Positions 61,296-62,849 of a DNA stretch of 64,000 bases are shown in pieces. The position numbers and the translations under genes are program-made. Source of the stretch: Octopus vulgaris (lineage: Eukaryota); the NCBI GenBank assembly GCA_951406725.2, contig OX597819.1, positions 82,522,001-82,586,000 of the forward strand, read 5' to 3'. The number at the start of each line of letters is the position of its first letter. The stretch's first letter is position 1. The notes below the pieces were generated by a model. The model was not told the DNA's origin. It ran no database searches and worked only from the letters and a program-made list of their open reading frames with translations.

Positions 61296-61957
61296 TAATA
61301 AACACAAAATATGTTTCTATGAGCTTGTATTAGTTTCATGCAATGAAAGCAACTCAGAGAGCATTTTTTTAACACAGCTGGACATATTGAAAAATGCTGT
61401 CTGAACTGCCTGCAGTACATGAAACTAATAGTAGCTCATAAAAGCATATATCGTGTCTATTAAATAATATTTATCTCTCACTAGATGGAATACTTTTTTT
61501 TGTTGATCTTACCATCACAGAACAGTATACTGTATATATAAATGTGTGTGTGTATATATATATATATATATATATGTATGTATACACAAACACATGGAAT
61601 TATAATTAAAGCTTAAAGGCTTGGAAATAAATATATCTAGTGGAAGTGAAATGTAAGAAGAAAATCAATGTTCAAATTATATATAATGGTAGATATCACA
61701 TATATGAAATAAAGGTATGTTTCTACCAATGCTTCCATCGATAAGCACGCTCTATTAACATGTTTACAAGGGGATTCTTAGAAAATAGAATAAAAAATAG
61801 TTCAATATTACAGAGTTGGCAGAATTATTTGCCTTTATCGTATGGTAATGAAATAGAGAGAATCAACCAATCTAAATTAAATTGTTTATAATGGTCTTTT
61901 AGATAGCAAATTAATTTACTAAGCCCTGTACAGTTGCATTTATTACTGTCTTTTTTT

Positions 61958-62252
61958 TATATAGGTAGTTCTTCTCAATCATTACTCTACATTTAGGGAT
62001 GGTAATAAATGCAACAGTACAGGGCTTAGTAAATTAATTTGCTATCTAAAAGACCATTATAAACAATTTAATTTAGATTGGTTGATTCTCTCCATTTCAT
62101 TCCCATACGATAAAGGCAAAGAATTCTGCCAACTCTGTAATACTGAACTATTTTCTATTCTATTTTCTAAGAATCCCTTTGTAAACATGTTTATAGAGCG
62201 TGCTTATCAATGTAAACATTGGCAGAACTATACCTTTAGTTCATATAAGTGA
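61958..62252 (+). pseudogene. Penelope-type GIY-YIG endonuclease C-terminal fragment
   Basis: YIGSSS (61958-75), a frameshift/deletion, then the open frame 61977-62252: NHYSTFRDGNKCNSTGLSKLICYLKDHYKQFNLDWLILSISFPYDKGKEFCQLCNTELFSILFSKNPFVNMFIERAYQCKHWQNYTFSSYK*. It contains YIG, NH..F, STxLSK, W.IL, PY, CxLC..E, N...E and CxH motifs. Not in the supplied ORF track. Confidence 0.8.
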
Positions 62253-62546
62253 TATCTACCATTATATATAATTTGAACATTGATTTTCTTCTTACATTTC
62301 ACTTCCACTAGATATATTTATTTCCAAGCCTTTAAGCTTTTATTTTAATTCACATATCGCTTTATATTTCTTTTTTATTAGTTTTCTGCTTATTTCTTTC
62401 CTTTTCTTCTTTTCTTTCTATAAGCTACCTTTGACGTTATATCTTCTAACGGTTTTTAAAAAAACTTAATAGCATTCTGTTCATCATTATACATATCCAT
62501 CACATTCTGTTAAAATGTCTTATTGATGAATTTGGTTTCTTTCTTT

Positions 62547-62635
62547 CTTTCTCTGATGAGAAGATTACAATGTTTTACACCGTATTATTCCTTTGGAATA
62601 ATACCCATGTTGTCTTCGAAACATATGTTTGAAGT
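62547..62635 (+). ncRNA. Type I hammerhead ribozyme motif
   Basis: ctttct CTGATGA (62553-59), gaaga...gtattattcc-ttt-ggaataatac...tcttc, GAAA (62618-21), catatg, TT, tgaag. Palindrome ACATATGT in stem III; one mismatch at the base of stem I. Confidence 0.75.
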
Positions 62636-62849
62636 AAAAGAGTTTGAATAACACCTGTATTGAACTCCATTTATTTATAAACACACACACACACACACAC
62701 ACACACACACACACACACACACACACACACACACACACACACACACACACACACAATATATATATATATATATATATATATATATATATATATATATATA
62801 TATAAAATAAGTATGAGGGTTTCAGTTCACTGGTGATTTAAATGAATAG

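What the first reader, a model, noticed from the sequence alone, without database searches (positions are those of the whole stretch)
61597..62680. Penelope-like insertion linking the hammerheads to a GIY-YIG endonuclease, with a 350-bp inverted 5' duplication
Seen: an endonuclease C-terminus absent from the ORF track (YIG...NHYSTF...STGLSK...W.IL...PY...CQLC..E...CKH), followed about 300 bp later by a same-strand hammerhead and (CA)n(TA)n. It is preceded by an inverted copy of its own 3' region. Established: tandem and inverted partial duplications are a hallmark of PLE integration. Inference: the CxLC...CxH extension differs from the canonical Penelope/Neptune CCHH layout and, from memory, resembles the Hydra-type PLE clade; this needs verification. 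The locus explains the other ORF-less fold-backs in the window.
Basis: partly seen in the sequence, partly recalled or inferred. Interest (0 to 1): 0.7.

Follow-up and report, generated by a model that had tools for sequence, protein, structure and literature searches.

The report
Decayed Hydra-type Penelope lacking cysteine linker
This is a broken, cut-short copy of a very abundant Penelope-type jumping gene, joined back-to-back to an inverted piece of itself; the copy is ordinary, but its family lacks a cysteine motif thought to aim such elements at TA repeats, and its youngest copies carry a ribozyme change that likely slows self-cutting.

Summary
The observation largely holds. The 350-nt inverted repeat is real (18 mismatches). 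The right arm is the last ~730 nt of a Penelope-like element: endonuclease end, 3' UTR with a decayed type I hammerhead, then (CA)n(TA)n. The family has 13,556 first-look candidates in the genome and intact 775-aa copies with a telomerase-like RT and a GIY-YIG domain (I-TevI, Z 9.1). Corrections: YIG is out of frame (20-nt deletion), the inverted arm lacks the hammerhead, and the window's other fold-backs belong to other families. An octopus Hydra family is already published. What differs: this lineage has lost the Hydra linker CxCX5C (0 of 81 stretches) yet its 3' ends abut (TA)n (95 of 102); two-armed insertions carry exactly one 156-nt tail (29 of 35); and its youngest copies, like those of a second Hydra family in the genome, have a U4C hammerhead core. 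The scan noted linker loss and the one-tail rule before in this genome, and U4C in another. Verdict: ordinary dead copy of a variant lineage; interest modest.

The parts
61553..61574 (.). (TA)n at the left flank, followed by a 22-nt degenerate microsatellite up to the arm
61597..61946 (-). Inverted arm: copy of 62002-62351, broken by stops, without hammerhead or element 3' end
61947..62001 (+). 5'-truncated start of the direct arm (spacer); holds YIG at 61958, a 20-nt deletion against L012, and at most 1 nt of microhomology at the head-to-head junction
61977..62252 (+). C-terminal 91 codons of the GIY-YIG endonuclease (H, CxxC, E, N, CxH) and stop; 76% identical to intact copies
62253..62547 (+). 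3' UTR upstream of the ribozyme
62548..62634 (+). Type I hammerhead, decayed: core 62553-62559, stem II with long loop, GAAA 62618, palindromic stem III, predicted cleavage site after 62629, stem I closing pair broken
62635..62680 (+). Element 3' end of the tail-less ('UTR end') type
62681..62803 (.). (CA)n then (TA)n at the right flank

Best explanation
The locus is a dead, 5'-truncated insertion of a Hydra-derived Penelope-like retrotransposon whose two head-to-head arms were likely made in one integration event. Shown: the family encodes one 775-aa protein with an RT followed by a GIY-YIG domain, carries a type I hammerhead in its 3' UTR, ends at two fixed sites 156 nt apart, and abuts (TA)n. 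Inferred, from the in vitro work on the Poseidon element PAc: the endonuclease nicks both strands of a TA-rich target; each nick primes reverse transcription internally on uncut tandem RNA, one at each of the two start sites; both cDNAs stop early and are joined at their truncated ends, which gives two arms of which one has the tail. Here the right arm has the tail-less end; the left arm would have carried hammerhead and tail and has likely lost them by a later deletion, or was primed further inside. Both start sites lie 3' of the hammerhead cut site, so copies that run into the ORF must come from uncut (or re-circularised) RNA; self-cleavage is therefore likely dispensable or slowed, which fits the drift of the core to U4C in the youngest copies. 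The linker cysteines are absent throughout this lineage, so TA preference likely rests on the GIY-YIG domain itself or on pairing with the AT-rich start sites.
For: Three of the 150 scored matches lie in 778-codon frames, translating to RW, DKT, YRDD, IY..YIG, CxxC-E-N-CxH. Model pLDDT 84; top Foldseek hits DRT2 RT and telomerase RTs, E 1e-8. Isolated endonuclease: PF01541 E 3.8e-4; VIA-align I-TevI Z 9.1, rmsd 2.6, 89 aligned; T4 EndoII Z 7.8. L021 shows (TA)n + inverted truncated arm + 159-nt direct repeat + ORF + UTR + repeat + (TA)n. In 75 loci: 102 of 111 outer 3' ends fall at two sites; 95 of these 102 have TA>=8 within 30 nt against 5.4% of window 30-mers; 29 of 35 two-armed loci have exactly one tail, 0 have two, 1 has none, 5 have an internal end. 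The second, linker-bearing family shows the same rule in 16 of 17 two-armed loci (read by eye). PAc cleaves and extends both strands, starts RT at two internal sites that delimit the tail, prefers AT-rich DNA, and inserts as well with a dead hammerhead (PMC11167929, parts 1-2 of 4). Arm divergence of 5.1% is of the order of the 2.9-7.7% distance of 12 close copies from their majority state, and both arms have own changes (4 right, 12 left, 2 unclear).
Against: The left arm lacks the element's 3' end, unlike 30 of 35 sampled two-armed loci. The arms are closer to each other (94.9%) than the 12 close copies are to each other (mean 91.4%) and share 6 derived positions, which also fits a later duplication or gene conversion. 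True 5' junctions are only modestly TA-rich: 6 of 33 against 5.4% (p 0.008), after 10 of 43 flanks were dropped by eye as element sequence or internal breaks; part of the 3' TA signal could be repeat growth from the AT-rich ends. The endonuclease is below Pfam's cut-off (21.1 against 22.6 bits) and no Foldseek hit reached E 0.001. The mechanism is borrowed from another clade. Loci were the top-scoring 150 of 13,556 candidates, not a random sample.
Confidence: 0.85

Rival explanations
1. The element inserted as a single arm and the inverted arm arose later at the DNA level (fold-back replication or break repair), or the arms were homogenised by gene conversion.
For: The left arm lacks the 3' end and has no tail; 6 derived positions are shared by both arms, one of them seen in 0 of 12 close copies; arms are 94.9% alike against a mean of 91.4% between close copies.
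Against: Two-armed copies are very common in the family (35 of 75 loci). The two arms start at different 5' points and meet with at most 1 nt of microhomology. Five of the 6 shared positions also occur in other copies, as source-lineage or CpG changes would. 18 differences show that the arms are old.
Confidence: 0.12
2. The (TA)n at 3' ends is not a chosen target but grows after insertion from the AT-rich element ends, so the loss of the linker says nothing about targeting.
For: Both 3' end sites end in TA-like letters; only 6 of 33 true 5' junctions have TA>=8; the window copy is followed first by (CA)n.
Against: 5' junctions are still enriched over background (p 0.008 at TA>=8, 4e-5 at >=7). 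Copies 99-100% identical to each other already have long TA runs. The linker-bearing family shows the same flanks.
Confidence: 0.2
3. U4C in the two young families is neutral drift of a hammerhead that no longer matters, not a selected slowing of cleavage.
For: In this family stem II also weakens stepwise (G10.1-C11.1 becomes G-U in 35 of 38 scored copies at >=98%). Dead hammerheads do not impair PAc insertion in vitro. Only two independent events are seen. Naiads thrive without canonical hammerheads (PMC8557442 passages).
Against: The same core position changed in two unrelated families, creating a CpG against the decay seen at neighbouring CpGs; the second family keeps stems I-III and has held U4C since copies 84-96% like the young unit. 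U4C is reported to lower but not abolish activity (PMC3088659 passage).
Confidence: 0.6

Closest known systems
Hydra clade of C-terminal EN+ Penelope-like elements, including Hydra-1_Obim (Craig et al. 2021, PMC8557442; seen: passages; section 11; supplement parts 1, 2, 7, 58, 59 and a search)
   Same: Single ORF, unit under 3 kb (2843 nt), DKT, C-terminal GIY-YIG without CCHH, CxxC and CxH around E and N, type I hammerhead in the 3' UTR, (TA)n flanks, inverted 5'-truncated arms.
   Different: No linker CxCX5C (present in 9 of 9 Hydra rows of Fig. S7 and 46 of 47 aligned homologs); RWL for RWK; tail of 156 nt instead of 30-40; hammerhead loop II of 40-50 nt; U4C core in the youngest copies (all 25 Hydra hammerhead rows of File S2 have U4). 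Only 29-39% identical to the aligned homologs. By eye the genome's second family (L151), not this one, resembles Hydra-1_Obim.
Penelope/Poseidon clade, PAc of Anolis (Frangieh et al. 2024, PMC11167929; seen: parts 1-2 of 4 of the text)
   Same: No linker zinc finger; AT-rich targets; two RT start sites delimiting an optional tail; hammerhead near the start sites.
   Different: Poseidon has CCHH inside the endonuclease and no C-terminal CxxC/CxH; its start sites lie inside the ORF, here they lie in the non-coding repeat.
Chlamys elements (PMC8557442 passages)
   Same: Microsatellite bias without the linker or CCHH: a precedent that the linker is not required.
   Different: N-terminal endonuclease, own CxC domain proposed to do the targeting, (CA)n/(C)n targets, mostly no hammerhead; this family has no such CxC domain in view.
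PLE minimal/dimeric hammerheads (Cervera and de la Pena 2014, PMC4209133 passages) and natural core variants (Perreault et al. 2011, PMC3088659 passages)
   Same: Type I, short palindromic stem III, G10.1-C11.1 in older copies; U4C known as a weak natural variant in a viroid.
   Different: U4C fixed in two recently amplified PLE families was not found in the five paper searches.

Membership tests
C-terminal EN+ Penelope-like elements | Single ORF with telomerase-like RT | tested here: met
   775-aa ORFs in L021-L023 with DKT and YRDD; fold hits to telomerase and other RTs. Pfam gives no hit for the whole protein.
C-terminal EN+ Penelope-like elements | C-terminal GIY-YIG endonuclease | tested here: met
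   I-TevI Z 9.1, rmsd 2.6, 89 aligned; PF01541 E 3.8e-4, just under cut-off; Y, Y, G, R, H, E, N invariant in 42 rows.
C-terminal EN+ Penelope-like elements | Partial tandem (pLTR), inverted 5'-truncated arms, optional tail | tested here: met
C-terminal EN+ Penelope-like elements | Hammerhead in the repeat | tested here: met
   Canonical core and stems in older copies; decayed in the window copy; cleavage itself untested.
Hydra clade | DKT in place of DKG | tested here: met
   SDKTG in L021-L023
Hydra clade | N-terminal RWK motif | tested here: inconclusive
   RWL here; the third residue also varies among the homologs
Hydra clade | No CCHH in the endonuclease | tested here: met
   Alignment
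Hydra clade | CxxC and CxH around the conserved E and N | tested here: met
   Present in the window copy and intact copies; invariant in 42 rows; zinc binding untested
Hydra clade | Linker with CxCX5C | tested here: not met
   0 of 81 in-frame linker stretches from 74 loci have the motif; 79 have no Cys, 2 have one; 3 of 3 readable copies of a sister lineage also lack it. Hence filed as a Hydra-derived variant, not as a standard member.
Hydra clade | Insertion at (TA)n | tested here: met
   95 of 102 fixed 3' ends; 6 of 33 true 5' junctions; background 5.4%. Pre-existing target not shown.
Hydra clade | Groups with named Hydra families in an RT tree with other PLE clades | not testable with these tools
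   No named reference or outgroup sequence was available to the tools. A quick tree of 42 rows (40 of 51 homologs; 7 near-duplicates and 4 under 600 aa left out) groups the family with three linker-bearing proteins, SH-aLRT 99, midpoint root only.
Penelope/Poseidon, Neptune, Nematis | CCHH motif in the endonuclease | tested here: not met
   against the definition
Naiad/Chlamys | N-terminal endonuclease | tested here: not met
   Endonuclease is C-terminal
Non-LTR retrozymes | Non-coding tandem units with a hammerhead each | tested here: not met
   One hammerhead, attached to coding remnant; no tandem unit

The most novel reading that the evidence does not exclude
Two unrelated, recently amplified Hydra-type lineages in one genome independently fixed the same hammerhead core change (U4C) because slower self-cleavage keeps the RT start sites attached to the ORF, and one of them has targeted (TA)n for its whole history without the linker zinc finger. 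The pair (linker absent and linker present, both with intact ORFs) would then be a natural test set for two open questions: what PLE hammerheads are for, and what aims these elements at microsatellites.
Probability: 0.25. Interest if true: 0.55.

Novelty: new variant of a known kind. Interest (0 to 1): 0.32.

Why it matters
The window copy itself is ordinary debris. The family matters modestly: the linker was proposed to mediate microsatellite bias (PMC8557442), and this lineage keeps the bias without it, next to a linker-bearing family in the same genome. The function of PLE hammerheads is described as unclear in the same paper; a stepwise change of the core in lineages that kept spreading, with natural old and young variants on hand, makes that directly testable. 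The strict one-tail pattern in two families gives genomic support for both-strand priming at two start sites.

Tried and rejected
Rfam: no hit at gathering in the window, no hammerhead at E<=10 over 62350-62750. My strict hammerhead descriptor found nothing in the window, so hammerheads were read from alignments and by eye; minimum-energy folds do not give the full hammerhead shape. Pfam: no GIY-YIG hit for the window peptide or the whole ORF; 2 of 48 alignment members hit RVT_1. Foldseek on the endonuclease: no E<=0.001, though the top 9 rows are GIY-YIG nucleases. Expression: no RNA holder listed; only contigs could be laid, no going-back joints were listed, and contig depth cannot rank parts, so nothing is concluded on transcription, cleavage or circles. 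The careful tree did not finish; the quick tree has no outgroup. The profile hit included a family member and was repeated without it. Considered that CTGA in old copies is CpG decay of an ancestral CCGA: rejected for this family because 0 of 31 copies under 90% show the other decay product CCA while the neighbouring CpG shows both; for the second family CTGA 593 against CCAA 114 and CTGA loci are 76-88% like the young unit. Considered a young canonical-core lineage: 20 of 2305 pattern matches sampled, highest pairwise identity 95.7%; not excluded in the rest. Searched for an ORF behind the 23228-23400 hammerhead: none upstream in 20 of 20 loci. Seven other window frames gave no Pfam hit under E 0.05. 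The O. vulgaris repeat paper (PMC13282606, passages) has no occurrence of Hydra or hammerhead in its main text; its supplements were not read. bioRxiv 10.64898/2026.07.22.740005: part 1 of 5 read, supplements closed; not used. Repeat libraries (Repbase, Dfam) could not be searched, so the family may already be catalogued there.

Full report
Observation. The window is AT-rich animal DNA with many microsatellites; the genome handle G000 has 2.8 Gb and is likely an octopus (inferred from the likeness of a second family to Hydra-1_Obim and from earlier scan notes). The inverted repeat is real: 61597-61946 against 62002-62351, 18 mismatches in 350. The right side reads as an endonuclease C-terminus in frame 61965-62252, followed 300 nt later by a hammerhead core at 62553 and then (CA)n(TA)n. 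YIG at 61958 is in another frame, because 20 nt present in L012 are missing. The inverted arm does not include the hammerhead or the element's end.

What it is. The 91-aa peptide gave 13,556 first-look candidates in the genome; 150 were scored, at 73-86% identity apart from the window itself. Three lie in 778-codon frames that encode a 775-aa protein. Its model (pLDDT 84) matches DRT2 and telomerase RTs best. The last 131 residues, folded alone (pLDDT 88), match I-TevI at Z 9.1 and T4 EndoII at Z 7.8 and PF01541 at E 3.8e-4, under the cut-off. A homolog search gave 51 unnamed proteins; 47 were aligned, at 29-39% identity. A profile from these 47 alone scores the window peptide at 56.6 bits against at most 5.3 for 500 shuffles.

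Clade. Craig et al. define Hydra by RWK, DKT, no CCHH, a linker CxCX5C, C-terminal CxxC and CxH, hammerheads and (TA)n. The family has DKT, no CCHH, CxxC and CxH, and RWL. It lacks the linker: 0 of 81 in-frame stretches from 74 loci have the motif, against 46 of 47 aligned homologs (one with a shorter gap counted in, one modified counted out) and 9 of 9 Hydra rows in Fig. S7. A sister lineage at 59-76% protein identity also lacks it, so the loss is old. In a quick tree the family groups with three linker-bearing proteins (no outgroup). I therefore call it a Hydra-derived variant. An octopus Hydra family is published. The genome also holds a second, linker-bearing Hydra family with 717-codon frames and a 2590-nt unit.

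Architecture. L021 shows the whole pattern: (TA)n, inverted truncated arm, 159-nt direct repeat, ORF, UTR, repeat, (TA)n. In 75 loci (15 picked for long frames or paired hits, 60 more from the list; not random), 102 of 111 outer 3' ends fall at two sites 156 nt apart, and 95 of the 102 have TA>=8 within 30 nt, against 5.4% of window 30-mers. Of 35 two-armed loci, 29 have exactly one tail, 1 has none, 0 have two and 5 have an internal end. The second family shows one tail in 16 of 17 two-armed loci (by eye). True 5' junctions are less clear: 6 of 33 with TA>=8, p 0.008, after dropping 10 of 43 by eye. 'Tail often at one end only' is in print; the near-strict rule is a quantification of it.

The window copy. 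It belongs to an old subfamily (12 close copies, 2.9-7.7% from their majority state). Its arms differ at 18 sites, 4 changed on the right, 12 on the left, 2 unclear (12 against 4, p 0.08), and share 6 derived sites, 5 of which also occur in other copies. This fits formation at insertion from one source lineage, but does not exclude an early later duplication. The right arm has the tail-less end; the left arm ends inside the UTR next to a degenerate microsatellite.

Hammerhead. Older copies have a canonical type I ribozyme with a long loop II and a palindromic stem III. The window's is decayed at the closing pair of stem I. Sorted by identity to L021: 39 of 39 cores at >=98% are U4C, and 35 of 38 scored also lost G10.1-C11.1; at 95-98%, 13 U4C, 14 canonical, 3 other; under 90%, 24 of 31 canonical and 2 U4C. 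Copies near L021 share its state by descent, so this is one event. Genome-wide, the exact U4C 21-mer occurs 513 times and a degenerate canonical pattern 2305 times, sister lineages included. In the second family 64 of 64 cores in 40 loci are U4C; genome-wide 3890 U4C, 593 canonical, 114 CCAA; 15 canonical loci are 76-88% and 15 CCAA loci 84-96% (best piece) like the young unit. All Hydra rows of File S2 have U4. U4C is reported to lower activity in vitro, and dead hammerheads do not impair PAc insertion in vitro. Two events do not prove selection; drift is the likelier reading.

Mechanism. Shown: domain content, two fixed 3' ends, TA flanks, one-tail asymmetry, and that both ends lie 3' of the predicted cut site. 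Inferred from PAc: nicks on both strands of a TA-rich target, internal priming at the two sites on uncut tandem RNA, early termination and joining of the truncated ends. Inferred: targeting without the linker rests on the nuclease core or on pairing with AT-rich start sites; Chlamys and Poseidon are precedents for microsatellite or AT bias without a linker.

Other fold-backs. They do not share non-simple sequence with this family. 33723-34364 carries a hammerhead in each arm and belongs to another repeat with TA-ended, variably truncated copies. 30180-30700 is a fixed palindromic repeat, likely a MITE (inference). 31328-32740 frames a DDE_3 transposase.

Earlier scan notes, opened after these analyses, report linker loss and the one-tail rule on other DNA of this genome, and a U4C core in another genome. 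They are not counted as support.

Verdict. Real feature, right family, ordinary dead copy. New variant of a known kind at the level of the lineage; interest 0.32.

Noticed in passing
L151 (G000:C5:53448900-53457700) and L116-L155: Second Hydra family, linker present, 717-codon intact frames, 2590-nt unit, copies 98-100% alike, three 3' end sites, U4C hammerhead core in 64 of 64 sampled cores; by eye close to Hydra-1_Obim.
   Followed up: partly
window 33723-34364: Fold-back with a type I hammerhead in each arm (cores near 34183 + and 33904 -), loop II of about 80 nt, around a microsatellite centre; 1446 first-look candidates; no Hydra ORF nearby in 13 other loci.
   Followed up: partly
window 23228-23400 (-): 173-nt hammerhead-bearing 3' end between two (TA)n runs; 3238 candidates; sampled copies are all short and no ORF was found upstream in 20 loci.
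   Followed up: partly
window 30180-30700: Palindromic repeat with fixed ends, 2905 candidates, no Hydra ORF in 10 loci; likely a MITE.
   Followed up: partly
window 31328-32740: Tc1/mariner-like element: 116-nt inverted ends at 96% around a 211-codon DDE_3 frame, E 1.8e-16.
   Followed up: no
window 60713-60877 (+): Possible 165-nt host exon with AG/GT ends about 700 nt left of the insertion; no Pfam match. If real, the insertion lies in an intron with the hammerhead on the sense strand.
   Followed up: partly
L221, L225, L230: Sister lineage at 59-76% protein identity, also without linker cysteines, with a long Asn-rich insert before the endonuclease and a canonical hammerhead core.
   Followed up: partly
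L156-L185: Many older copies of the second family are short two-armed fold-backs made only of 3' UTR and hammerhead, showing that ORF-less fold-backs can arise from Hydra elements in this genome.
   Followed up: no
L021:5750-6815, runs X1, X2, X16, X18: Contigs of runs from four coded organism labels cover the linker, endonuclease and UTR in 30 of 30 bins, with both core letters present; run kinds are guesses.
   Followed up: no
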